Positions 1 through 53,364 of a DNA stretch of 53,364 nucleotides are shown here, one piece after another. Both the position numbers and the translations under genes were made by a program. The stretch comes from a virus. Lineage: Duplodnaviria; Caudoviricetes. Positions within the stretch are counted from its first letter, which is position 1. Each line of letters begins with the position of its first letter. The DNA is taken from IMG/VR virus record IMGVR_UViG_3300031841_003004, positions 1-53,364 of that record, one strand, 5' to 3'. The notes below the pieces were generated by a model. It made no database searches and was not told the DNA's origin. It was given only the letters and a program-made list of their open reading frames with translations.

Positions 1-3000
1 GCCCCAGATATCAATCCCTCCTTGAGGAGTAGCACGGCAGTCTGTGAAACCATACTACCCACAACAAGCTTACCGAAGTTCTGAGCCGCCTCACGAGCGT
101 CCTTGTTCTTCAGGTTGTTCATGATCCTAGGTCCAGCAACGTAGGGGGACACGTATGTCAGAGTGTCCAAGAGGATGTTCGCTGGAGTCCGAACGTAAGG
201 CAGGTTCGACCTGATAAGGAACTTAGCCATCGCCTGTCCGTCTGCCCCAGGAATCCAATCGAACGCCTTGGTAAACATGCGCTCGAAGAACGCAACTGCA
301 TCCTCAGCGGCTTGTGACGCTCCAGTCTGCTCTTGGTACGTAAGCTTCCTGCCCTCCATCTCAGCGGCAGCCCTCTCTTTCTTGGTGGGGTGCTTGATGA
401 ATTGAGCCAAGGCTTCACCTTCGAGGCCCTGAGCGCGACCAGCTTGGTAGAGCTCGATACCCTCGACATACCTTCTAAACGGAACGTCACCGAGGGACAG
501 GAACCTAAACATGACCTCTGCGGGGATGCCCAGGGTTCCCTGCACGGCAAGCTTCATTCTCTGGCTCAAAGGCGCTTTCCCGTCTGGTCCCATGGGCAGG
601 TCTCCCTTACCGACAGCAGCCATCAAGGACCTGAACGGAGCAAACCCTCTGTGTACCCTCCACTCAGAGACGTCCTTCTCCTGACCAGTAATGATTCCGT
701 CCAGCGCCTCGACAAATCCAGCTCCAAACTTTCTGATCCCGTACATGTAAGCGTTGATCGAGTAGGTCCTTTTCATGGGGGACTCGATGCCAAACATGTT
801 TATCATGCGCTCCACTGGAAGGGCTATGGCATCCACGGCAACCTTGCCAAGGGCATTGATCATGTTGGCGCCAACGTTGGTCACCTGAGACATCGGGGTA
901 AGGAGATTACCTTGGATAAGCATCGTTCCGATCTGACCCCAGCCCCTTTCAATAACGCCGTTCGCAAACGTGTCGAGCTCCCTCTCAGCGGCCTTGACTT
1001 CATCCGTCTTCGCCTTCAAAGCGGCGTCAACCTCTTCACCTGCAATGGCTCTTCTGACCAGGTCTTCATGCTCAGCCTGAAGGCGGAACAGATTACCAGC
1101 CATGTCCTGAAGCCTAGCGGTTTGAGATTCGCTTAGGGTGTTACCCCTTCTTTCTACCTCCCCTTTTATAATCTGTTCTATCCCTTTCGGGGATGCGGAC
1201 TTCAGCTCTCTAAAGTGTCTGAGGATCCGTCCAGCAGTAGTTCCTATTGCGGCTGCTTCTGCAATGATCGATGGGATGGCATCGAGGTCACCCCTTGACA
1301 CAGCTCTGGATATAAGCTCTCCCGCAGCAAGAACTCCAAGATCGTCGTTTCTATCCTGAAGACGAGACAAGCCCTCCTGACTCATAATAGCCACCAAGTC
1401 TTGGTCGCTCTTATCCTTCAGCATACCCTTGGCCTCCTTTATGGACTGAGGGGTAAAGTAATTATTTGGGTTGTCCAGGATCTGCCTTCTTATATCTCCT
1501 CCGTATTGCCTAGCTCCTCTTCCAGCCGTCTTTCTCAACTTGAGGAGGCCGCTTGCCATCCTTTGTGCTTCCTCCATGTTGGCGGCTACCTCGCTCTCAC
1601 TCATAGCGACCTTGGATTCTATGGGCATGTTGTCGTATGCAAGCTCCAGGTCTGCCTCGGAATCGAACTCCACCCCGTTTCTTTCTGAGAAGGCCTTAAA
1701 TCTCTTCAGTGCTTTGTCGTATTTAGGGGACCTCTTAATTCTGTCTTCCAGCTCTTTAGGGGTTTCTTTTCTGCCTCTCTTGAGAATGGGGTCATTGTAA
1801 TCGAAGTACTCGATGTCCCCCCTCAGATAAACGGTGTTCCCGATCACGGTAGCCTCTTCAGCAGACTTGATGGGCCTTCCAGATGCGTCTACGAAAACGT
1901 TGTGCTTGAAGGGGTTAAAGAATGCCTTAACTCCATCGAAGTTCATCTGATCCAGCTGATCAGTAAGGAATTCACCATTCACACTTGCCATGGGGAATTT
2001 GTTTTCCTGGAAGGTGACGATCTTTCTCCTTGCGTTCTGATTAACGAAGAGCTCAGGGTTCTTCACCATGACGGCAGGGGAGTACCTAAGCGCCTCTCCC
2101 GAAGCAGTCTTGTCGTGCATCGTTTGAACAGGGACCCCTGTGTTCTTCATGACGTTAAGGTTGAGCCTAATGCCAACCTTCTGACCCTGCTTAACCTCAG
2201 AGTTCTTTTCCATTATTCTTCTGGACGTAGCGTCAGTAGAAAGGGCCTCGTCTGTAAGCTTGTTGGTGATCCTTCTACCGTCTCTCATCATGGTCGCCTC
2301 TTCTGCCTTTCTGCTTCTGTAAAGCGGAGAGTCAGCGGCGTTCTGATTGTTTTCTGAGGGGAACATAAGCATGGTGGATGCTCTTCTCTCGTTTTCAACC
2401 TGAGGTATGGCATCAGAGTACGTTACGTAAGGCCTTGGCGGCTTGCTTTCTCCAGACCTGTCGAACATGCCGAAGTCAAACACCTGCCTGTCTGCAAATA
2501 TCAGCTGACCAACTTGTGCTGGGGAGTAGTTTTTCTCAAAGGTCTCGTTTATGTACTGGGTAACCTCATTCACCAAATCAACCGAAGCCCTTTTTACTAT
2601 GGGGCTTTCCGATACGTGTGGGTTGAGAACCTTGTCTATAGCCCTGTCTATAGACCTAGCAGTATCAGTATCACCCTCCAGTTCAAGCTGATCAGCTGTT
2701 TTTACAGCCCAGTCAATCTCATCCCTGATGATTTCACTAGCGTTTTTTATAATGAGGTTGTCTCTCTCCGTTCTCTCTTCTGGGTACCTCCTGAGTGCGT
2801 GCTCAGCTTTTTCAAGAACGGAGGCCTCTAGGTCAGTAAAGTCCTTAAACACTTTAGATGCTCCAAAAGTGTCGCTGTCAGACAGATACTCTCTTAGCTC
2901 CCTAAGCTTTCTAATTCCGTAAAGAGCCACGACTGGGGCATCATACCACAACCCATTTATAAGGGCAGTAGTGTTCAATACGTGGGTGTCTATTGTTACG

Positions 3001-6000: not shown

Positions 6001-8207
6001 TGATTGTAGTCTTCTATGATTCCCCCTATGTCGTTCTTCTCTTCTTTAAGGGCATCCAGTTCACTCATCGCAGACCTGAGTTCTTCCATGTCTGGCTCTC
6101 CACGAAGCGCAGAATCGTGCAGGTCGTCTATCTTGGATTCAACCTCCTCTATCCTAGCGTCGATAGCAGACACCTTTTCCTCCACATCATTGTAGCTGGA
6201 CTCTGCTTTTTGCTTTTCGTTCAGCTGAACGTTCTTCTCGGCCAGAGATCTTTCAATACCAACCCTAGTAGCTACAGCATCGGCGAGACCTTTTTTCATG
6301 TCCTCCCTAAGATCCTCTGGAAGGTTCTCGTCCATCAGCATCCTTTCCGTGTTCACGATACTGATGTCCAAAGACTGAATTCTTTTGGCGAGGTCTGGGT
6401 CACTAACAACAAGGTCCCTGTAGAAGTTGACTCTCTCTTTAAGCGTTGATTCAGCCTCCGCCTCAAGCTGTTTTGCGTTAGCAAGCATAGAGGCCTTCTC
6501 CTCTTTGTTGAACACTTCTTTAGCAAAAGACCTTATTCTTTTAGCCCTATCGAGCATCTCGTAGGCCGCGTTAGACTGAGAGTCGTATCTCGATCTACCA
6601 AGCGCTCTGGCTCTTTGACCACTAGACTGTTGGTCTATATCAAGTTCGAACACCCCTGTTCCGCTATATCTTGCGGAGACGTGATCTATGGCGGCATCAA
6701 TCGCAGCTTGAGCAGCCGTAACGTTTCCGTCTGCCATCGCCTCGTTATATTTCTTAAAGGCGTGATTTGCGGCCCTATCTATGCCTATTCCGAACAGCTG
6801 CTTTCCTTGCGACTGAGCCCTGGTCTGAAGATCTTGTTTTAGCAAGTCCACAGTCGGGGCTTGCTCTTTTCTTATTCTTCGAATGTGTTCTTGCAGGTCT
6901 TTGTCTCGCTTGACTTTTATCTGCTTTTCGTCGACCATGTGGCCGCTTTCTACAAACTCAAGAACGTCCTGAGGCTTAACCCGCTCTCCATTCACCTCGT
7001 AAGTAGCTGTGGTACCCGCTGCAAGACTAATGCCGCCCATCGGAGCCTCCATCAATCCCTCAAGGGTTACCTCGTCCCAGTCTACGTCACCAGTACTTAC
7101 TAGCTGAGCGGCAAGCTCACCGAAGGACGCACCAGTAGTCTCAACTCCAGTGGTAACTGCGCCTCTCGTAAAGAGGGATCGACCAACCAGACCTGCTGAA
7201 GACTTGCTCGCAAGACCCATAGTTATCGCGTCAGCGACACCTATAGCCACGCCTCTGGAGCCAGCCTCCCATTGCATTCTTTTTCTAACCTCTTCGTTCT
7301 CAAATATTTGAGCTACGTTTTCTGCAGTAGGCTCTTTGTCCCCAAGTTCCTCTTTCACTATTTGCATAATCGTCGCCTCGGCGTCGATCATACCCGACAG
7401 GCCCCCGACGAAACCCCTAGAGAATCCGCCCGCAAAACCAATTCCAGCACCAGCAGCACCACCCACGGCAGCACCTGGACCAGTAGGAGCGGTAACAGCC
7501 GCGCCAGTTCCACCACCTATAGCCGCGAAAGTAGCCCCCGTCGCGAGGCCCGTGCTGCCAGCAACAGCAAGGGTTGTGGCTTCAGTGCCGCCACCTGCCA
7601 TGAGTCCAAGAGAGTGAAAGATAAGTTCAGCGGTCGCGTCAAGGTTCTCTCCCCTAGCAAGCATCCTGTCCCAGTATCCTCCCCCTTCTTCTTCTATCCT
7701 TCTGAGCTCGTTTTCGAGATTAAGGGCTTCGTCGGAAAGCCCCCTGCCCTGAGTCCTTCTTATGGTGTCCGCAACCTTCTGGTAGTCGTCAAGGTCTCCA
7801 AAACCCATTCCAGCAGCAAAGGCTTCTCCTCCAGCAGAGCCCTCATAATAACCGCCAACGAAAGCCCTTGACTGGTCGCCAATAAAGTCCGTAAACCAAC
7901 CAAGGCCAGGTATATCTCTTGTTGCGTCTTCGACGTATTGCCAAATTCCAGAATCCATTTCTTGAGACTCTGGCTCTCCCTCAGGCTCTGGTAGCTCAAG
8001 GGCTTGACGGGGGTCCACAGAAGCAATCTTGTACGTTGGTCTGGGTTGAACCACATCGTCTCCCCCTACTTGGCTTCCAACAAGGCTCCTTGCCTCAGAT
8101 GGATCCATGTTGTAGTTAGGGGAGTTTACGAGAGTGTTTACGATATACTGGTCAGACCTACCCTGTGCTCTGAGAACTGAAATGATCTTCTGAGGGTCTC
8201 CGTTCAT
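1..8207 (-). CDS. Giant polyvalent / ejected internal virion protein (>2735 aa, C-terminus beyond the left window edge)
   Basis: ATG at 8207 (MNGDPQKIISVLRAQG...) follows a TATATTTG box. The frame is open at every position checked (1-60, ~2980-3100, ~4850-4870, ~5580-5645), and the ORF track lists no stop-terminated ORF in it. Contains a Gly/Ala hydrophobic stretch, a GNAT-like segment and a zincin-like EEVLH segment. Confidence 0.85.
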   Translation of the reverse strand, partial: MNGDPQKIISVLRAQGRSDQYIVNTLVNSPNYNMDPSEARSLVGSQVGGDDVVQPRPTYKIASVDPRQALELPEPEGEPESQEMDSGIWQYVEDATRDIPGLGWFTDFIGDQSRAFVGGYYEGSAGGEAFAAGMGFGDLDDYQKVADTIRRTQGRGLSDEALNLENELRRIEEEGGGYWDRMLARGENLDATAELIFHSLGLMAGGGTEATTLAVAGSTGLATGATFAAIGGGTGAAVTAPTGPGAAVGGAAGAGIGFAGGFSRGFVGGLSGMIDAEATIMQIVKEELGDKEPTAENVAQIFENEEVRKRMQWEAGSRGVAIGVADAITMGLASKSSAGLVGRSLFTRGAVTTGVETTGASFGELAAQLVSTGDVDWDEVTLEGLMEAPMGGISLAAGTTATYEVNGERVKPQDVLEFVESGHMVDEKQIKVKRDKDLQEHIRRIRKEQAPTVDLLKQDLQTRAQSQGKQLFGIGIDRAANHAFKKYNEAMADGNVTAAQAAIDAAIDHVSARYSGTGVFELDIDQQSSGQRARALGRSRYDSQSNAAYEMLDRAKRIRSFAKEVFNKEEKASMLANAKQLEAEAESTLKERVNFYRDLVVSDPDLAKRIQSLDISIVNTERMLMDENLPEDLREDMKKGLADAVATRVGIERSLAEKNVQLNEKQKAESSYNDVEEKVSAIDARIEEVESKIDDLHDSALRGEPDMEELRSAMSELDALKEEKNDIGGIIEDYNQAKAEYEAALEDLGGEDQTAFRAAEEKMKEARQALDMSIGKLDVTEETSNSEVSSVSVNDFIEAPADAYVSAMELARKADEEKGSNLFLQVSPVSLEEAQRILNDGGSLFLSKDGMAGGYVTSDGYIGGLFKSPNSPMKGAAGAMLELSKEKGGKYMDAYATKLEEIYVDAGFKPVARVDFNPEFAPEGWDADNSPLKGKPDVVFFTLGEGKIGDGKRVESYDEAMNMAQEEASKVEKEPKSTESEFADIDEAVKDARPEVKETTENRSVDTGKVPEKAVSTPRAKDGNPAWRSDVAGITSSEAKTLNSLQKMLDNLGVKMYVYPDSETAMEFDSGNWGGLYDPTTNTIHINPSQIRDNAAIESEVLNRTKTFSETVMEEVLHAALPMAHIYSVNPKKAASIRSEIRKALSNDPDLLARIDAKVESYRSEGVSEAVLFEEEVHEFLSALAADPSSVNLKTVDKIRVAINKMIAAAYGAIGKEFSIKDTDSLIAIAGKFAAAKNGKASVSSRTQGTRAQSNSRASKMVSPTRIPVNKDGKVVVRMEETFYKYDIGFKKDIGSETITKTFNDVWHFVNWWKKATNMGADQHYFGFETEDGTTIDVDRIKDYKSKRRSTQINTPMGIAKDINAMSSAAVSQGILGKAVLSTIRRKVRGMSTKIQVMEGRNQTDSPRYKNEVEKLKAFSKYVSSIIDREAKDLGKEFRYGSNPDVRASQLISKDAIENGTSPIDLEFIREEIGKATGFKPNNRVVAYQVMFKHLMERFPDKESRRAHFKSLMGKYIADEKLMAETFGGRNPLDFFSDWETESRPKVQSMIDSGVITGSLQDNVAKLNIFAALTSAKNSAVPNIKAAFWMLQESEKYKVDNPLGVTESFIKMATKASEGAPGLEGMTKRQIRVSLRKLMDLVNGNMDGYENMSPIVKDGIKRATGARDNFYGNQDVRWKDLMKFLMTPFDGPNVKFRGRVMSQVVFGNKIGAWAMNLNSANYKDMVNNEGQRMSDIVTIDTHVLNTTALINGLWYDAPVVALYGIRKLRELREYLSDSDTFGASKVFKDFTDLEASVLEKAEHALRRYPEERTERDNLIIKNASEIIRDEIDWAVKTADQLELEGDTDTARSIDRAIDKVLNPHVSESPIVKRASVDLVNEVTQYINETFEKNYSPAQVGQLIFADRQVFDFGMFDRSGESKPPRPYVTYSDAIPQVENERRASTMLMFPSENNQNAADSPLYRSRKAEEATMMRDGRRITNKLTDEALSTDATSRRIMEKNSEVKQGQKVGIRLNLNVMKNTGVPVQTMHDKTASGEALRYSPAVMVKNPELFVNQNARRKIVTFQENKFPMASVNGEFLTDQLDQMNFDGVKAFFNPFKHNVFVDASGRPIKSAEEATVIGNTVYLRGDIEYFDYNDPILKRGRKETPKELEDRIKRSPKYDKALKRFKAFSERNGVEFDSEADLELAYDNMPIESKVAMSESEVAANMEEAQRMASGLLKLRKTAGRGARQYGGDIRRQILDNPNNYFTPQSIKEAKGMLKDKSDQDLVAIMSQEGLSRLQDRNDDLGVLAAGELISRAVSRGDLDAIPSIIAEAAAIGTTAGRILRHFRELKSASPKGIEQIIKGEVERRGNTLSESQTARLQDMAGNLFRLQAEHEDLVRRAIAGEEVDAALKAKTDEVKAAERELDTFANGVIERGWGQIGTMLIQGNLLTPMSQVTNVGANMINALGKVAVDAIALPVERMINMFGIESPMKRTYSINAYMYGIRKFGAGFVEALDGIITGQEKDVSEWRVHRGFAPFRSLMAAVGKGDLPMGPDGKAPLSQRMKLAVQGTLGIPAEVMFRFLSLGDVPFRRYVEGIELYQAGRAQGLEGEALAQFIKHPTKKERAAAEMEGRKLTYQEQTGASQAAEDAVAFFERMFTKAFDWIPGADGQAMAKFLIRSNLPYVRTPANILLDTLTYVSPYVAGPRIMNNLKNKDAREAAQNFGKLVVGSMVSQTAVLLLKEGLISG

Positions 8208-23189: not shown

Positions 23190-24494
23190 TTATGTAGCTG
23201 AAGTTGCAACCAACAAGACTTCTCCTAGCGCCTGGTTGTTTTCCCTGAACGTCAACATAACCGTATTGATTCCAACGTTTATGTCATTTCCATCAAGCAT
23301 CTGATTGATACTAGACCAAACATTGCTTCCAGGTGTGTTTTTGAAGCTGGTATTACCCATAAAGAACCCAGGAGCAAGGTTTGCATCCCAGTTTGCATAC
23401 CAAGCCCCATTCTTTTTTGCGAATATGAACTCATTGCCCAGGGATGCCGTGTGCTCAATCGTGATCAAATCTTCATAGTCCGTGTCTGTGCCGATTTGCT
23501 GATAAGTTCTATCTGAATTGGCGGGTTCAATATTAAAGTAGAAGGTCGCTCTACGAGACCCGTATAGACTACCGTCCGTCTTAATTGCGTAAAGGCAAAG
23601 TCGGCTCTTCATAAATGGCTTTTCCCAGTCGGTGTCTGTGCCTATTTGTATTGGGTAGAAGCTGTCTGTCGTGTTTCCTTGTCCCAGTGCTCCATCGTTG
23701 GCATCACCGAACGCAAAGAATTTACCACTCTTGGTTACCACCGCAGAGGCGTTGTATCCGCAGCTTATCTCAGCTATTGTCTCTGTCCAGTTTGTAGTCG
23801 CATCGGACTTGACTCTAGTCCACGGCTTGGTGCTTCCGCTGGTCGTTCCTACCCCAAGTCTTCCGAAGTAATTGCTTCCTGCGGCATACAGGTATTCGCT
23901 TCCAGTGCTACCTTTTATAGCAAGACCTCCAGTGGGAAAGTTTACGTATGCGTCGATGTCAATCCAGTCTGTGTCGCTACCAAACTGAGACCACCCGTAG
24001 TTCGTGCTGTTCGTGGTTCCAGTTCCCGTGTCTGAGCTTGCTGCGAACTGAGAGCAGTTGCCGCACCACCAAAGTTCTCCATTTGTCTTAATTGCCCAAC
24101 AACCCTGATCGAAAGGAGAAAACTTCGCCACATTAGTCAGGCACTGCACAAGCTGATGCCCGTCACCATTAACAGCTCTTCCCATTCTGTTCAGGTTGGT
24201 ATACCCCATAGAATAAAGGTTGTTAGAGCTGTCTAGTGCAAACATATGCCAGTTGTTGCACTTCATTCGAACTATGTCGGTTCGAGTAGAAAGCTGGGCT
24301 TTATAAAGGCTTACCGCATGTTCCCCGTAAAACTCCTGTGCATCAGGAACTCTCGAATTGAATCCGCCACCCTCAAAGTACAAGACTCCCGTGTTAGATT
24401 CTGAAGGACCACTGCTTCCAGCGGGTACGTCCTGTCCGTTTATAGATGCGATGTTAGCCATTTGGATTCCGTTGTATTCACTTATATCTGGCAT
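23190..24494 (-). CDS. RCC1/BLIP-II-like beta-propeller protein
   Basis: Repeats AIKTNGELW, GSNYFGRLGVG, FGDANDGALGQG, AIKTDGSLY and QIGTDTDW. Confidence 0.75.
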   Translation of the reverse strand: MPDISEYNGIQMANIASINGQDVPAGSSGPSESNTGVLYFEGGGFNSRVPDAQEFYGEHAVSLYKAQLSTRTDIVRMKCNNWHMFALDSSNNLYSMGYTNLNRMGRAVNGDGHQLVQCLTNVAKFSPFDQGCWAIKTNGELWWCGNCSQFAASSDTGTGTTNSTNYGWSQFGSDTDWIDIDAYVNFPTGGLAIKGSTGSEYLYAAGSNYFGRLGVGTTSGSTKPWTRVKSDATTNWTETIAEISCGYNASAVVTKSGKFFAFGDANDGALGQGNTTDSFYPIQIGTDTDWEKPFMKSRLCLYAIKTDGSLYGSRRATFYFNIEPANSDRTYQQIGTDTDYEDLITIEHTASLGNEFIFAKKNGAWYANWDANLAPGFFMGNTSFKNTPGSNVWSSINQMLDGNDINVGINTVMLTFRENNQALGEVLLVATSAT

Positions 24495-40296: not shown

Positions 40297-41673
40297 TCAC
40301 CTGATTATTGTCACATGACCATTGATTATATATGACTCTCCGTATCCTTCGCATTCTACTCTGTAAATATACGTGTCGTCAGGGACATAGTATTCATCTC
40401 CTCCTAGCCAGATATCCTCAGAGTAGAAGCTCTCCCACACTATCTCTCCAGACCTAGAAAAAACTCGCATCCGCCAGTCCTTCCAACAGTCTGGGTCGGT
40501 CTCTGCTCCCCAAGCGTCGTTGACCCCGTCATTGTCTGGGGTAAACGAATTAGGGATGTAGATCTCACAGTCAGAGAACGGGTTGATACACGGCTCCCCT
40601 GTAGCACAATCCACCTCTACCATGTCGTATTCGTAAATCATAGCTGTATCTACTTGATACTCAATATTGTATATAGTGTCAGTTAAAGTAATATACGAAG
40701 TGTCGACTTCTGTAATGTACAGTGTGTCAGTTAGATACACATACGTGGTGTCGTAGAAATACCAGTTTACCGCTACAGGAATGGTGTCGTTGATTATGAC
40801 CGTATCCGTCTCAGTGATGTATAGCGTATCTGGGGGTAGCTCTATATATGTGGTATCGTAAACGAAAGTGACCACGGGTAGAATTTCTGTAATCGTGTCG
40901 TAGACAAACACCGTGTCGTACTCCAGGACTACAATGGTGTCAGGCGGCAATTCTACATACACCGTGTCATACACGTAAATGACTTCTGGTATATCTTCTG
41001 GGCAAGTGATAATCCAGTTGTCTTGCCAGTTAGAGTCCTCATACAGGCCACAACAGTCGGGAGTTATACCGCCACCAATCCCCCCTACTTCAGCCCAACC
41101 TCCGTTATCAGAATACATGGTGGGTCCGTAGCTAATCTGCCATATCACAGCCTGAATACCCAGACCCTGATTCATCCAGAAATCAAAAGCATTTAGAAGA
41201 TTAGCATACAGGCTAATCCCACCCGACTGATAGAAATCGCCCAACGGAAACGTAATGGTATCCCCAGTATAGTATGGAGGGTCTACGTTGTAATCCGACC
41301 AGACATCTAGGTTGGTCCAGTTTGTTGACGAAGTTGTGGTCGTAGCAGAGTATATCCACCCAGGATGATTACTGTCGTCGGGAATACTAAGGCCCCAAGG
41401 AAAATCCCACCCTTGGTTCATGGCGTTGCAGTTCGAGTCCAAAGCCTGGAAACCGAACTGTATCTCGGCAATCCCAGTTGGGCCCGCTGCGCCCCCGCAA
41501 CTTTCGGTGTTGTTGAACGCTACGGTTATCTCACCAGCTACTGGATCGAAGTCAAGTAGCTCTAGGTCACATTGAGCGACAGAGCTAAAAGAGAAAGCAA
41601 AACAAGCAGCCAGTAGATAGATACTAGTCTTCGTACTCCCCGTTCCATTCTTCGTTAAAATAGATGTGATCAT
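40297..41673 (-). CDS. Secreted protein with T9SS type-B (gliding-motility-associated) C-terminal domain
   Basis: Signal peptide (IYLLAACFAFSFSSVAQ), DT(V/I/L) beta-repeats and C-terminal IYIPNSFTPDNDGVNDAW...VFSRSGEIVW...YIY...GHVTIIR. Start at MITS after a TATCTTCG box. Confidence 0.8.
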   Translation of the reverse strand: MITSILTKNGTGSTKTSIYLLAACFAFSFSSVAQCDLELLDFDPVAGEITVAFNNTESCGGAAGPTGIAEIQFGFQALDSNCNAMNQGWDFPWGLSIPDDSNHPGWIYSATTTTSSTNWTNLDVWSDYNVDPPYYTGDTITFPLGDFYQSGGISLYANLLNAFDFWMNQGLGIQAVIWQISYGPTMYSDNGGWAEVGGIGGGITPDCCGLYEDSNWQDNWIITCPEDIPEVIYVYDTVYVELPPDTIVVLEYDTVFVYDTITEILPVVTFVYDTTYIELPPDTLYITETDTVIINDTIPVAVNWYFYDTTYVYLTDTLYITEVDTSYITLTDTIYNIEYQVDTAMIYEYDMVEVDCATGEPCINPFSDCEIYIPNSFTPDNDGVNDAWGAETDPDCWKDWRMRVFSRSGEIVWESFYSEDIWLGGDEYYVPDDTYIYRVECEGYGESYIINGHVTIIR

Positions 41674-41720
41674 TGTTGCACGAAGATACCCAATTAAAGG
41701 ATCCGACGCGCATGGTGTGG

Positions 41721-42044
41721 TCACTTGCTGAACTTCTCAGCGAACCCTCCAGAGTAGTCTTTTTCTTCTTCGACACGTCCATTTTCTTTGAGTTCTTTTA
41801 CCATCTGCTCCAAGGATTGCCTCTCCCTGAGAAGCTCCTTGCAGTCGATAGCGGTTTGTTTCACGGATTGAAGTTCGGCCTTCCTAGCGCTTCCAGTGAT
41901 CTCTTGGTCGACGGGCTTTTTCACCTCTTCGATCATGTTATCAATGGCGATAGCCATCGCGTCCATGAGCTTCACTGCAGCGGTAAGGGTGTTAAAGCTT
42001 GTAGAGGAGCTCCGTGACCGCGACCCTGTAGTATTCTTTGCCAT
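41721..42044 (-). CDS. Helical protein, candidate terminase small subunit
   Basis: Helical/coiled-coil ~107 aa ending GGFAEKFSK, upstream of terL. Function inferred from position only. Confidence 0.45.
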   Translation of the reverse strand: MAKNTTGSRSRSSSTSFNTLTAAVKLMDAMAIAIDNMIEEVKKPVDQEITGSARKAELQSVKQTAIDCKELLRERQSLEQMVKELKENGRVEEEKDYSGGFAEKFSK

Positions 42045-51886: not shown

Positions 51887-51907
51887 ATCAGCAACTTAGA
51901 AAATAAA

Positions 51908-51939
51908 TTTGGTGGATACGAACATTTGATGTATCTTTG
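51908..51939 (+). promoter_or_regulatory. Early promoter 4
   Basis: TTTG-N20-TATCTTTG. Confidence 0.75.
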
Positions 51940-51966
51940 TCCACGACAATTCAAACCTCACAACAC

Positions 51967-52182
51967 ATGAAACAACCCTCATCCACCGAGGCGCACATCG
52001 CCGACCTCAACCGAGACAAGGTTCACCCTGACGTTGCCATCCACACCCACGTCTGCTTCATGAGCATGATGCGGGACTGGATTGACGAGATGGACCCGTT
52101 CACGGACTGGGAAGACTTGGGACGACAGGACCTCATGGACATCATGGAAGGCCTCATGGATATGTACGAACAGAAACTCTAA
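51967..52182 (+). CDS. Small acidic, Met-rich early protein
   Basis: Start MKQPSS after CACAACAC. Confidence 0.6.
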   Translation: MKQPSSTEAHIADLNRDKVHPDVAIHTHVCFMSMMRDWIDEMDPFTDWEDLGRQDLMDIMEGLMDMYEQKL

Positions 52183-52491: not shown

Positions 52492-52585
52492 CGGCAAGTA
52501 CTTCAAGCAACCCGCTAACCGAGTACACAAAGACAAGTCCAAGTACACACGAAAGAAAAAGCACAAGAACAATGCTGAACGATAA
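52466..52585 (+). CDS. ArfA-like small basic peptide (39 aa), putative
   Basis: MNLNKTLPDGKYFKQPANRVHKDKSKYTRKKKHKNNAER fills the gap between two genes. Confidence 0.5.
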   Translation: MNLNKTLPDGKYFKQPANRVHKDKSKYTRKKKHKNNAER

Positions 52586-53213
52586 CACCAACACCCGCGC
52601 CTTCGCCGAATCCTTTGGCCGCGCCATCTGCCACGGCATGAACATCGTCACCTGTGACGCTCTCCTCAACCCGCAGTCCTACGGCTTCTACTACTACGCC
52701 AATGACGCGGAAGCCACCGTCATCTCACCCACGGATCCTGAGGGTGCGTACTCGTACTGGGCTGGCGAACTGCGCGAGGCACAGGCTCTTGCCGAGCGGT
52801 ACGGCCAAGACCCCGCCACCTACGGCATCATGATGACCTACAACCACGGACGTGGGTGCATCTACCTGAACCTGGTCCGTGTCGAGTACATGAAGAGCCG
52901 CGCCTTGGACATGGCAGAGAACGATGGGGTGCAATGCCCGCACATCATCACGGAGTTCGGACGCAACCAACCGAACAGGCGCATCTCCCTCGACGAGGAG
53001 GGTCGTACCCCATACCCACAGGATGAGGCGGGGCGTGCATTGGAAGATGCAGGGCGCAACCGAGAAGACGTGGAGGACGCGGCAATTCTGTTCCGAGACC
53101 TCGGCTTCACCTCCGAGAAGGGGACGAACCCTAAGGGTATCGACCTCGAAAAGAAGTTCAGCAATCTTGCTGAGCAGGACTCGCAATGTGACGAGTTCGA
53201 CGAGTGGGAGTGA
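52572..53213 (+). CDS. Acidic early protein, unknown function
   Basis: 213 aa, GC3-rich codons. Confidence 0.7.
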   Translation: MLNDNTNTRAFAESFGRAICHGMNIVTCDALLNPQSYGFYYYANDAEATVISPTDPEGAYSYWAGELREAQALAERYGQDPATYGIMMTYNHGRGCIYLNLVRVEYMKSRALDMAENDGVQCPHIITEFGRNQPNRRISLDEEGRTPYPQDEAGRALEDAGRNREDVEDAAILFRDLGFTSEKGTNPKGIDLEKKFSNLAEQDSQCDEFDEWE

Positions 53214-53224
53214 CACCCCACACA

Positions 53225-53287
53225 TGATGCGAATGGTTGACCCCTGTGTGTCTGGGGGGTCGGAGGGTTCGAGTCCCTCCCGCATCA
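53225..53287 (+). ncRNA. tRNA-like element 2 (no D-stem)
   Basis: TGATGCG...CGCATCA acceptor stem, AATGGTT linker, GACCCC...GGGGTC hairpin and GGAGGG-TTCGAGT-CCCTCC T-arm. Confidence 0.7.
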
Positions 53288-53291
53288 CACC

Positions 53292-53352
53292 TGTTGCCTA
53301 CGTGTCAGAAAGAGGGGCAACACTCATCGGAGGCTGACACCTCATGGATGAG
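53292..53352 (+). ncRNA. Two adjacent hairpins with complementary (kissing) loops
   Basis: Stem TGTTGCC/GGCAACA encloses GTGTCAG. Stems CTCATC/GATGAG and GAGG/CCTC enclose CTGACA. Confidence 0.55.
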
Positions 53353-53364
53353 CGGCGTGAGAGG

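What the first reader, a model, noticed from the sequence alone, without database searches (positions are those of the whole stretch)
53292..53364. Kissing-loop double hairpin immediately 3' of the tRNA-like element
Seen: hairpin A is TGTTGCC(53292-98)/GGCAACA(53316-22), with GTGTCAG(53302-08) in its loop. Hairpin B starts at the next base: CTCATC(53323-28)/GATGAG(53347-52) plus GAGG/CCTC, with apical loop CTGACA(C)(53334-40), the exact complement of the loop A sequence. Four helices in about 60 nt are unlikely by chance. Established: phage tRNA regions host ribozymes and large ncRNAs (theta ribozymes, GOLLD), but this topology does not match an HDV-like or hammerhead core. Inference: an unclassified structured RNA, perhaps the 5' part of a larger ncRNA released by cleavage of the tRNA mimic and continuing past the window.
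Basis: partly seen in the sequence, partly recalled or inferred. Interest (0 to 1): 0.75.

Follow-up and report, generated by a model that had tools for sequence, protein, structure and literature searches.

The report
New structured RNA beside phage tRNAs
The two hairpins are the first half of an undescribed, roughly 160-base folded RNA that a few uncultured marine phages carry squeezed between tRNA genes and tRNA look-alikes; it is real and conserved, but its job is still unknown.

Summary
Hairpin A, hairpin B and the complementary loops are at the stated coordinates.

The window is a whole 53,364-base IMG/VR contig that stops inside the element. Relatives show that 53288-53364 is the 5' half of a 152-197 nt non-coding module; a model built from them matches its positions 1-77 of 151 (86.7 bits).

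I found 12 distinct full-length variants. Both hairpins and a terminal hairpin keep pairing through compensatory changes. One-sided changes give only G-U, which points to a + strand RNA.

All 12 kissing-loop positions are invariant, against 7 variable of 16 other unpaired columns (p=0.01). The kiss is therefore plausible, but covariation cannot prove it.

The module always ends 4-6 nt before a tRNA-Arg or a tRNA-like minihelix (13 of 13 loci). It often starts right after a tRNA or tRNA-like element.

- No Rfam family matches, and there is no coding signal.
- There is no match in 50,697 deposited phage records.
- Only 1 of 5 near-complete related phage genomes carries it.

Best reading: an accessory stable RNA cut out of an early transcript by tRNA-processing enzymes. 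Its function is unknown.

First readers of this scan flagged the same RNA on two other genomes.

The parts
53204..53221 (+). Hairpin 0: GUGGG/CCCAC stem with a loop holding UGACAC. It overlaps the stop codon of the upstream gene (TGA at 53211-13). It would be the 3' end of the upstream mRNA if RNase P cuts at 53226.
   Evidence: RNAfold. Relatives L004, L008 and L016 have a GAGGG/CCCUC hairpin with a CUGACA loop at the same place. Its role is inferred.
53226..53287 (+). D-arm-less tRNA-like element.
- Acceptor: 53226-31 with 53281-86.
- Linker AUGGUU.
- Middle arm: 53239-44 with 53256-61, 9-11 nt loop.
- T arm: 53262-67 with 53275-80, loop UUCGAGU.
- Discriminator: A53287.
   Evidence: Sequence; fold. 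Neither ARAGORN nor Rfam tRNA calls it. The L004 copy gives a sub-threshold mascRNA match (20.7 bits against 42.5 needed). There are 11 distinct variants in relatives, with constant acceptor and T arm and a variable middle.
53288..53364 (+). 5' half of the conserved 152-197 nt RNA module, truncated by the end of the contig.
   Evidence: Covariance model R1: 86.7 bits, E 5.6e-18, model positions 1-77 of 151, cut at the 3' end. Read by eye, identical to the first 77 nt of the L008 copy.
53288..53292 (+). Conserved 5' leader CACC(N), preceded by A. ACAC(C/U) is present in 12 of 12 variants, whatever lies upstream.
53293..53321 (+). Hairpin A: 7-bp stem (53293-99 with 53315-21) and a 15-nt loop that holds GUGUCAG.
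   Evidence: Alifold; of 7 pairs, 5 never vary and 1 shows a compensatory C-G/A-U change (6 and 5 sequences).
53303..53308 (+). Kissing strand in loop A (UGUCAG).
   Evidence: Invariant in 12 of 12 variants, although it was not part of the search anchor.
53323..53352 (+). Hairpin B: 11 pairs with two single-base bulges (53323-33 with 53340-52) and a 6-nt apical loop.
   Evidence: 5 pairs never vary, 3 change on one side only (always to G-U), and 3 change on both sides (columns 42-58, 44-55, 45-54).
53334..53339 (+). Kissing strand, the whole apical loop of hairpin B (CUGACA).
   Evidence: Invariant in 12 of 12 variants. RNAduplex of the two loop regions gives -11.4 kcal/mol for 7 bp.
53353..53364 (+). 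Junction CGGC (53353-56) and the 5' strand of helix C, GUGAG (53357-61). Their partners lie beyond the contig end.
   Evidence: In relatives GUGAG pairs with CUCAC about 95 nt downstream. CGGC could pair with GCCG in the loop of the last hairpin. All of these positions are invariant.

Best explanation
**What it is.** The 73 bases are the 5' half of an accessory non-coding RNA gene of a marine phage, probably one that infects Bacteroidota.

**Layout.** The whole module is 152-197 nt on the + strand. It has five helices:
- hairpin A;
- hairpin B, one base further on;
- a central domain, helix C enclosing helix D, with a variable insert;
- a terminal hairpin E.

It fills the space between an upstream tRNA, tRNA-like minihelix or gene end and a downstream tRNA-Arg or minihelix.

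**How it most likely works.**
1. It is transcribed as part of the + strand early polycistronic RNA (inferred).
2. RNase P cuts 4-6 nt after hairpin E, at the 5' end of the next tRNA or minihelix (inferred).
3. In this window the host's tRNA 3'-end processing cuts right after the tRNA-like element at A53287 (inferred).
4. A compact RNA of about 165 nt is released.

**The double hairpin.** Hairpins A and B are real RNA helices; this is shown by covariation. Their loops most likely pair with each other (6 bp) and lock the two arms side by side. This rests on invariance and complementarity only, and I rate it at about 50%.

**Role.** The role of the released RNA is not known. My best guess, about 30%, is a nuclease-resistant stable RNA that caps or insulates transcript ends created by this tRNA punctuation and binds a host or phage factor. 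The nearest parallel is the stable RNAs of the T4 and T5 tRNA regions.
For: **Homologues.** A metagenome scan, anchored 3' of both hairpins, gave 19 loci. Four other IMG/VR contigs also carry the module. Together they yield 22 full-length copies in 12 distinct variants.

**Structure.**
- 99.0% of 586 cells are paired.
- 6 pairs change on both sides, against 3.7 +/- 1.0 in shuffles; 14 of 500 shuffles reach that number.
- The covariation score is 0.139 against 0.086; 0 of 500 shuffles reach it.
- Slid controls give 0-1 such pairs.

**Strand.** All one-sided changes give G-U. On the other strand these would be A-C mismatches. The neighbouring tRNAs and genes of relatives lie on the same strand.

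**Conservation.** Between the window and L004 the element differs at 7 of 143 aligned columns, while the adjoining protein is 81% identical.

**Kissing loops.**
- 0 of 12 positions vary, against 7 of 16 other unpaired columns (Fisher p=0.010) and 19 of 46 all other columns (p=0.005) within columns 1-58.
- The chance of such complementarity is 0.0021.

**Context.** The gap from the end of the module to the next tRNA-Arg (CCU or UCU) or minihelix is 4-6 nt in 13 of 13 loci. Among 12 variants the module starts at the discriminator of a tRNA-like element in 4 and of tRNA-Met in 2.

**Non-coding.**
- The 52 variable sites split 13/19/20 by codon position.
- Length differences are not multiples of three.
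- The reading frame is stopped in 5 of 12 variants.
- No protein relative was found.

**Presence in RNA libraries.** Contigs from four metatranscriptome runs of three studies hold the element. One 377-nt record spans the tRNA-like element plus the whole module. This is weak, because DNA carry-over is not excluded.
Against: **No direct RNA evidence.**
- Nothing shows RNA ends, processing or abundance. The laid contigs cannot show starts, ends or strand.

**Weak points in the structure evidence.**
- The kissing helix, helix C, helix D and the proposed CGGC/GCCG contact never vary. They have no covariation support.
- Part of that invariance was imposed by the search anchor, which covers alignment columns 59 to about 91.
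- The 12 variants fall into two clades. Several compensatory changes are therefore single events.
- The single-sequence minimum-free-energy fold of the whole L008 module differs from the consensus fold.

**Geometry.**
- Hairpins A and B are joined by one base, so an intramolecular kiss needs the stems to lie side by side. By my own rough distance estimate the 3-nt and 6-nt loop linkers can just span this. I could not model it.

**Distribution and context.**
- The module is dispensable: 4 of 5 near-complete related genomes lack it.
- In 6 of 12 variants no tRNA precedes it, so 5' release by tRNA processing is not general.
Confidence: 0.6

Rival explanations
1. The complementary loops act between molecules. 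Loop A of one RNA pairs with loop B of another, giving dimers, rings or filaments. This would be a small counterpart of the oligomeric ROOL and GOLLD RNAs found in tRNA arrays.
For: - The loops are complementary, non-palindromic and invariant.
- The 1-nt linker makes an intramolecular kiss strained (my inference).
- Extra GUGUC-type and GACAC-type loops sit in the adjoining tRNA-like arm and in hairpin 0.
- A review I read in passages states that ROOL and GOLLD lie in tRNA arrays of bacteria and prophages and assemble through intermolecular kissing loops (PMC12990946).
Against: There are no data on oligomers. The RNA is 3-5 times smaller than ROOL or GOLLD, and no Rfam match to either was found. 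The asymmetric loop A, with a short 5' linker and a longer 3' linker, fits an intramolecular kiss at least as well.
Confidence: 0.1
2. It is a new self-cleaving ribozyme that cuts at its own 5' edge and so trims the 3' trailer of the preceding tRNA or tRNA-like element. The function would match theta ribozymes but with a different fold.
For: - The module starts at the discriminator base of tRNA-Met or the tRNA-like element in 6 of 12 variants.
- The conserved ACAC(C/U) leader, many invariant unpaired bases and a pseudoknot-type contact are typical of catalytic RNAs.
- Theta ribozymes sit within 5 nt of phage tRNAs and are proposed to process 3' trailers (PMC10879173, passages).
Against: - The helix order does not fit the HDV-like nested double pseudoknot. 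It runs A5', kiss5', A3', B5', kiss3', B3' (sequence; fold).
- No hit to any ribozyme family at E<=10.
- Six of 12 variants follow non-tRNA sequence.
- The tight link is to the downstream tRNA, in 13 of 13 loci.
Confidence: 0.07
3. It is decaying tRNA-derived debris or a recently exchanged spacer without a function of its own. Its conservation reflects recent horizontal transfer between related phages.
For: - Patchy distribution: 1 of 5 near-complete relatives carries it.
- It is far better conserved than its flanks.
- The slot before tRNA-Arg holds other elements, or nothing, in relatives.
- The central domain has T-loop-like and acceptor-like strings resembling the tRNA-like element (my reading).
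Against: Compensatory and G-U-only substitutions occur in three helices. Loop positions are invariant while neighbouring loop bases vary. Two clades about 25% apart keep the same architecture, including an insert that forms its own hairpin.
Confidence: 0.1
4. The double hairpin is a put-like element. The nascent RNA binds RNA polymerase and lets it read through the strongly structured tRNA region.
For: It has two hairpins joined by a single base, about 60 nt in all, in an early phage operon. HK022 putRNA is about 70 nt, has two stem-loops in a V shape and one base at the fork (PMC9378689, passages).
Against: - The conserved unit is 152-197 nt, not 60-70.
- The nearest upstream TAnnTTTG promoter-like motifs on the + strand are at 51904 and 51932, about 1.35 kb away.
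- Most relatives with the same tRNAs lack it.
- No sequence likeness was tested or seen.
Confidence: 0.04
5. The region encodes a small protein, or it is a DNA-level site such as attP, an operator or an origin.
For: - One frame is open through the module in 7 of 12 variants, and a 98-aa ORF spans it in L008.
- GTGTCAG and CTGACAC form an inverted repeat.
- The tRNA-like 3' half resembles the tRNA pieces found in att sites.
Against: - No codon-position bias (13/19/20).
- Frame-breaking indels, and stops in 5 of 12 variants.
- No protein relative.
- G-U-only changes are mismatches in DNA.
- The tRNA-like 22-mer and the module anchor each gave 0 hits in 185,579 prokaryote species genomes.
Confidence: 0.03

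Closest known systems
Stable RNAs of phage tRNA regions (T4 RNAC/RNAD, also called species 1 and 2; T5 stable RNAs)
   Same: These are small structured non-coding RNAs encoded beside or among phage tRNA genes on the same strand, and their function is unknown. [quoted passage not shown] That they lie in the T4 tRNA operon and are matured with the tRNAs is recalled, not taken from a call.
   Different: There is no sequence match to any of 50,697 deposited phage records. The phage lineage, probable host phylum and fold differ. Here the RNA is bounded by tRNA-like minihelices as well as by true tRNAs.
Theta (minimal HDV-like) ribozymes next to phage tRNAs
   Same: Both are structured RNAs placed within a few bases of a phage tRNA end, in phages of Bacteroidota among others. 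Theta ribozymes are proposed to act in tRNA trailer processing (PMC10879173, passages).
   Different: The helix order is not the HDV-like nested double pseudoknot. No Rfam HDV-type hit was found. The module is about three times longer, and its constant neighbour is the downstream tRNA, not the upstream one.
GOLLD and ROOL RNAs
   Same: They are found in tRNA arrays of bacteria and prophages and use kissing loops (PMC12990946, passages).
   Different: They are 550-830 nt against 152-197 nt here. No Rfam match was found. Oligomerisation was not tested here.
MALAT1/MEN-beta with mascRNA (tRNA-like processing signal behind a protective 3' structure)
   Same: A tRNA-like element lacking a normal D arm follows directly after a compact structured RNA, so RNase P cleavage would define a structured 3' end. 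The Rfam mascRNA model gives the best, though sub-threshold, match to the tRNA-like element.
   Different: That system is eukaryotic and nuclear. The score is 20.7 bits against a gathering score of 42.5, so this is not a member. No triple-helix element was seen. The comparison of mechanism rests on my own knowledge.
HK022 putRNA
   Same: Two stem-loops joined by one base, about 60-70 nt, in a phage early transcript (PMC9378689).
   Different: putRNA stands alone near promoters and acts on RNA polymerase. Here the double hairpin is only the 5' third to half of a longer conserved module tied to tRNA genes.

Membership tests
HDV-like / theta ribozyme | Nested double pseudoknot with strand order P1, P2, P3, P3', P1', P4, P4', P2' | tested here: not met
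   The observed order is A5', kiss5', A3', B5', kiss3', B3'. Only 7 nt lie between the kiss strand and A3', which leaves no room for P3/L3.
HDV-like / theta ribozyme | Match to Rfam HDV-type covariance models | tested here: not met
   No such hit at E<=10 on L004 5560-5960 or L011 4050-4420, nor at gathering on the window and five loci.
HDV-like / theta ribozyme | Self-cleavage at the 5' edge, next to a tRNA 3' end | not testable with these tools
   Adjacency to a tRNA or tRNA-like 3' end is met in 6 of 12 variants and in the window. Cleavage needs a bench assay.
Intramolecular kissing-loop (loop-loop) interaction | Watson-Crick complementarity of two hairpin loops | tested here: met
   UGUCAG (53303-08) with CUGACA (53334-39). 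Present in 12 of 12 variants; chance 0.0021.
Intramolecular kissing-loop (loop-loop) interaction | Covariation between the two loops | tested here: inconclusive
   All 6 pairs never vary. Conservation exceeds that of neighbouring unpaired columns (0 of 12 against 7 of 16, p=0.010).
Intramolecular kissing-loop (loop-loop) interaction | Sterically possible within one molecule | not testable with these tools
   I made only a rough distance estimate of my own. No 3D RNA modelling tool was available.
tRNA (for the adjoining tRNA-like element) | Cloverleaf with a D arm and a 7-nt anticodon loop | tested here: not met
   ARAGORN and Rfam tRNA find nothing at 53226-53287. The fold shows no D arm and a 9-11 nt middle loop.
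tRNA (for the adjoining tRNA-like element) | 12-bp acceptor/T-arm stack with a T loop of UUCGANU type | tested here: met
   6 + 6 bp and UUCGAGU. Kept in 11 of 11 distinct variants.
GOLLD / ROOL | Match to the Rfam models; size 550-830 nt | tested here: not met
   No hits. The module is 152-197 nt.
Phage tRNA-operon stable RNAs (T4 RNAC/RNAD type) | Non-coding RNA gene inside a phage tRNA cluster, on the same strand | tested here: met
   Flanked by tRNA-Met, tRNA-like elements, tRNA-Arg or minihelices on the same strand.
Phage tRNA-operon stable RNAs (T4 RNAC/RNAD type) | Sequence relationship to the known examples | tested here: not met
   blastn at word size 11 found no match in 50,697 phage records.
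Phage tRNA-operon stable RNAs (T4 RNAC/RNAD type) | Accumulates as a discrete processed RNA | not testable with these tools
   Only contigs from RNA libraries were available. They show presence, not ends or level.
HK022 put-type antiterminator RNA | Two stem-loops at a one-base fork, about 70 nt, just downstream of an early promoter | tested here: inconclusive
   The architecture is met. The placement is not: the nearest + strand TAnnTTTG motifs are at 51904 and 51932. The conserved unit is more than twice as long.
   No run of four or more GGYNN units on either strand of the window. The feature is taken from the abstract listing.

The most novel reading that the evidence does not exclude
The module is a new class of self-cleaving ribozyme, built on a kissing-loop double hairpin. 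It cuts at its conserved ACACC leader and matures the 3' end of the tRNA or tRNA-like element in front of it. That would be a non-HDV solution to the job proposed for theta ribozymes.
Probability: 0.07. Interest if true: 0.85.

Novelty: new variant of a known kind. Interest (0 to 1): 0.55.

Why it matters
Phage tRNA regions keep yielding structured RNAs whose purpose is unknown. T4 RNAC and RNAD have been unexplained for decades, and GOLLD and ROOL only recently gained structures.

This case has several useful properties:
- It is a compact, well-delimited new family of about 160 nt.
- Three of its helices are supported by covariation.
- It has a probable loop-loop lock.
- It is strictly coupled (4-6 nt) to an RNase P site.
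- It sits in phages that also use anticodon-less tRNA minihelices to punctuate an early operon.

It is small enough for direct tests: probing, RNase P assays, cleavage assays and cryo-EM of possible oligomers. It is accessory, present in 1 of 5 complete relatives. Host-interaction or anti-defence functions often show that pattern.

If the minihelix-plus-structure arrangement really defines transcript ends, it would be a bacterial-virus counterpart of mitochondrial tRNA punctuation and of the MALAT1/mascRNA 3'-end mechanism.

Tried and rejected
**Known RNA families.** The gathering search of the window returned only the two tRNAs at 39.7-40.0 kb. The gathering search of five loci returned tRNAs only. 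Searches at E<=10 of L004, L011 and L009 stretches returned only sub-threshold tRNA-like matches: mascRNA, tRNA-Sec and tmRNA T-arm pieces.

**Deposited phages.** No match for window 52900-53364 or for the full L008 element.

**Prokaryote genomes.** There were 0 hits for the tRNA-like 22-mer and 0 for the module anchor. I therefore have no host tRNA source, prophage copy or att-site support.

**Coding.** Rejected.

**VIPR guide RNA** (lead). Rejected, because there is no GGYNN periodicity.

**Neighbouring proteins.** Pfam and PHROGs gave nothing for P0001 and four or five neighbours. Among ten large ORFs, only a CHU_C domain and RCC1 repeats were found.

**More distant relatives.**
- The model R1 with filters off gave nothing above noise in L009, L029 and L002 apart from the known copy.
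- A loops-free pattern in IMG/VR found only contigs already known.
- My pattern was badly designed. It required one base too many for the first clade and found only L011.

**A P1-like closing helix.** RNAfold of the window drew one between the ACACC leader and GGCGUG. I did not pursue it. Both strands are invariant, and it competes with helix C.

**Metatranscriptomes.**
- The four RNA-library runs gave one short contig each over the element (151-377 nt).
- The bins outside 9005-9311 of L008 had no cover.
- That absence proves nothing. The contigs come from relatives whose flanks differ, and three of the four run on into unlike sequence. I draw no conclusion on processing or abundance from it.

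**Supplements.** Supplementary files of the theta-ribozyme paper, which could list marine or non-HDV tRNA-adjacent motifs, were not seen.

**Not in print?** I ran five literature searches. None of them could search by sequence. That this family is undescribed therefore rests on Rfam 15, the phage collection and those searches only.
Full report
**Where the window lies.** The window is an entire IMG/VR virus record: 53,364 bases, linear, with estimated completeness 79%. Position 53364 is therefore a contig end, not a biological end. GC content is 49.7%. A protein at 40297-41724 on the minus strand carries a CHU_C type IX secretion signal domain (E 3.9e-10). TAnnTTTG motifs are frequent.

**The observation.**
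- RNAfold gives hairpin A and hairpin B as the minimum-free-energy structure of 53285-53364.
- The energy is not exceptional on the + strand: z = -1.62, and 13 of 200 shuffles fold as well.
- The reverse complement scores better (z = -3.42).
- The loop complementarity is unusual by chance (0.21% of random draws). The duplex of the two loop regions is worth -11.4 kcal/mol.

**What lies upstream.**
- Gene 52572-53213 (P0001, 213 aa) has no Pfam or PHROG family.
- It ends in a small hairpin at 53204-53221.
- Next comes a D-arm-less tRNA-like element at 53226-53287. It has a 6-bp acceptor stem, a 6-bp T stem with a UUCGAGU loop, a short AUGGUU linker and a middle arm with a 9-11 nt loop.
- ARAGORN and the Rfam tRNA model do not call it.
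- The best Rfam match of the L004 copy is mascRNA, below threshold (20.7 bits against 42.5).

**Homologues.**
- Five IMG/VR relatives of P0001 show that the space between this gene and the next tRNA-Arg is highly variable. Only one of them, L004, carries the element.
- DNA patterns then found it in L008 and L011.
- A metagenome scan found 19 more loci. It used an anchor 3' of both hairpins, so that the hairpins and loops were left free.
- In all there are 22 full-length copies in 12 distinct variants of 152-197 nt. L030 is truncated at the 5' end and the window at the 3' end.
- A covariance model built from the 12 variants matches the window only at 53288-53364, over model positions 1-77 of 151 and cut at the 3' end (86.7 bits).
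- The nearest relative L024 agrees at 189 of 195 aligned bases. It continues with the rest of the module, 4 nt, and tRNA-Arg(CCU).

**Structure.** RNAalifold gives five helices:
- hairpin A;
- hairpin B, one base later, with 11 pairs and two bulges;
- helix C (GUGAG with CUCAC) enclosing helix D;
- in three variants, an extra 44-45 nt insert that forms its own hairpin;
- a terminal hairpin E.

Counting pairs, including two pseudoknots that I proposed, gives the following:
- 99.0% of 586 cells are paired.
- 6 pairs change on both sides, against 3.7 +/- 1.0 in shuffles (14 of 500 shuffles reach this).
- The covariation score is 0.139 against 0.086 (0 of 500 shuffles reach it).
- Slid controls give 0-1 such pairs.

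By helix:
- Hairpin A has one compensatory pair, C-G in 6 sequences and A-U in 5.
- Hairpin B has three compensatory pairs, two of which vary within one clade. It also has three pairs that change on one side only, always to G-U.
- Hairpin E has two compensatory pairs.
- Helices C and D never vary. Part of that region was fixed by my search anchor, so they remain predictions.

G-U pairs would be A-C mismatches on the other strand or in DNA. The folded molecule is therefore the + strand RNA, despite the better single-sequence z-score of the minus strand.

**The kissing loop.**
- UGUCAG (53303-08) and CUGACA (53334-39) are complementary in 12 of 12 variants and never vary.
- Within columns 1-58, which lie outside the anchor, 0 of 12 kissing columns vary. 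By comparison, 7 of 16 other unpaired columns and 12 of 30 stem columns vary (Fisher p=0.010 and 0.005).
- A further loops-free pattern search of IMG/VR found no variant with different loops.
- Both loops are therefore under constraint and complementary. That is what a kiss predicts, but without covariation it is not proven.
- The 1-nt linker excludes the usual end-to-end coaxial kissing complex. The stems would have to lie side by side.
- By my own rough estimate, the short 5' linker (3 nt) and the longer 3' linker (6 nt) of loop A fit that geometry. This is inference, not a model.
- An intermolecular kiss is an open alternative.

**Not coding.**
- The 52 variable positions of 160 split 13/19/20 over codon positions in the one mostly open frame.
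- Variant lengths differ by amounts that are not multiples of three.
- That frame has stops in 5 of 12 variants.
- A 98-aa ORF runs through the whole array in L008. It has no relative among 5.8 billion predicted proteins (1 candidate, none scored).

**Context and likely mechanism.**
- The module ends 4-6 nt before the first base of a tRNA-Arg(CCU), a tRNA-Arg(UCU) or a tRNA-like minihelix in 13 of 13 loci.
- Among the 12 variants it begins at the discriminator of the tRNA-like element in 4 and of tRNA-Met in 2. In 6 it begins a few bases after what reads as the end of a gene (no gene calling was done).
- ACAC(C/U) precedes hairpin A in all 12.
- The minihelix occurs in 11 distinct forms. The acceptor and T arms are constant and the middle part is 14-67 nt. 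Every 3' half found has its 5' acceptor strand.
- Minihelices also separate other genes of these phages, each preceded by a structured segment.
- Established knowledge says RNase P recognises the acceptor/T-arm stack. From that I infer that these elements punctuate the early polycistronic RNA, and that the module is released or left as a structured 3' end by RNase P cleavage. In this window its 5' end would be made by 3' processing of the tRNA-like element.
- None of these cuts is shown.
- Contigs from four metatranscriptome runs of three studies contain the element. One 377-nt record spans the tRNA-like element and the complete module. That shows presence in RNA libraries only.

**Distribution.**
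- The module is accessory. The model finds it in 1 of 5 near-complete related genomes of 59-68 kb.
- In IMG/VR I found it on five contigs, counting the window.
- Within its clade it is far better conserved than its surroundings. The window and L004 differ at 7 of 143 columns, while the adjoining protein is 81% identical.
- In relatives that lack it, the same slot holds nothing (L005), an unrelated short spacer (L006), or a different conserved structured element (L002, L003, L009).
- The model shows no relation between that other element and this module.

**Comparison with known systems.**
- It works most like the stable RNAs of phage tRNA operons, such as T4 RNAC and RNAD, whose function is still unknown (PMC9697503, passages). 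Their location in the tRNA operon is recalled. There is no sequence relationship to any deposited phage.
- It shares its position beside tRNAs with theta ribozymes (PMC10879173, passages) but fails their fold.
- It shares tRNA-array location and kissing loops with GOLLD and ROOL (PMC12990946, passages) but neither their size nor their models.
- The two-hairpin, one-base fork recalls HK022 putRNA (PMC9378689, passages), but the conserved unit is much longer and is not near a promoter.
- The tRNA-like element behind a compact structure recalls MALAT1/mascRNA (recalled; Rfam match sub-threshold).

**Earlier notes of this scan.** First readers flagged the same RNA on two other genomes, one of them the L011 genome, without follow-up. 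Several earlier follow-ups describe other novel RNAs in phage tRNA islands. The kind is therefore recurrent, but this family is distinct.

**Verdict.**
- This is a real, conserved, previously unclassified phage RNA of which the window holds the first half.
- Its stems are proven by comparison and its kissing loop is probable.
- Its processing is inferred and its function is unknown.
- Interest is moderate to good (0.55). I rate it a new variant of a known kind.

Noticed in passing
L002 5726-5872, L003 5620-5760, L009 1612-1747 (+): A different conserved structured element of about 125-145 nt occupies the same slot in relatives that lack the module. It sits after tRNA-Met or a minihelix and directly before tRNA-Arg. 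Its 3' 70 nt are nearly invariant. Alifold gives 34 pairs, 2 of them compensatory, from 3 sequences. No Rfam family matches and it is unrelated to model R1.
   Followed up: partly
L009 ~1480-1571, L010 ~6412-6502, L029 ~1135-1226 (+): A third structured segment, made of several GC-rich hairpins and ending in CCUAC, precedes tRNA-like minihelices placed between protein genes. This suggests that minihelix-plus-structure units punctuate the early operon of these phages.
   Followed up: no
window 53226-53287; L011 4080-4179 (-): The tRNA-like minihelix family has a constant acceptor and T arm but a middle part of 14 to 67 nt. The longest form (L011) gives a sub-threshold tRNA-Sec match (22.5 bits against 47). 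Only one copy (L008 9037-9083) ends in ACCA.
   Followed up: partly
window 53204-53221, 53245-53253 and L004/L008 equivalents: GACAC-type and GUGUC-type loop strings recur outside the finding, in hairpin 0 and in the middle-arm loop of the tRNA-like element. Helix D of one clade also has them. Several alternative loop-loop partners therefore exist.
   Followed up: no
L008 9014-9310 (-): A 98-aa ATG-started ORF runs through the tRNA-like element, the whole module and the second minihelix. It has no protein relatives and is an annotation trap. In the window the same effect gives ORF 52924-53337 and the open-ended ORF 53237-53362.
   Followed up: yes
window 40297-41724 (-): A 475-aa protein has a C-terminal CHU_C type IX secretion signal domain (E 3.9e-10). 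This supports a Bacteroidota host.
   Followed up: partly
window 23190-24494 (-): A 434-aa protein has RCC1 repeats (PF00415, E 1.8e-11). Eight other large ORFs in the structural region have no Pfam family at all.
   Followed up: no
window 51904, 51932 (+): Two closely spaced TAnnTTTG motifs lie on the + strand just before gene 51937-52182. They are the nearest candidate promoters for the transcript that would carry the tRNA-like element and the module.
   Followed up: no
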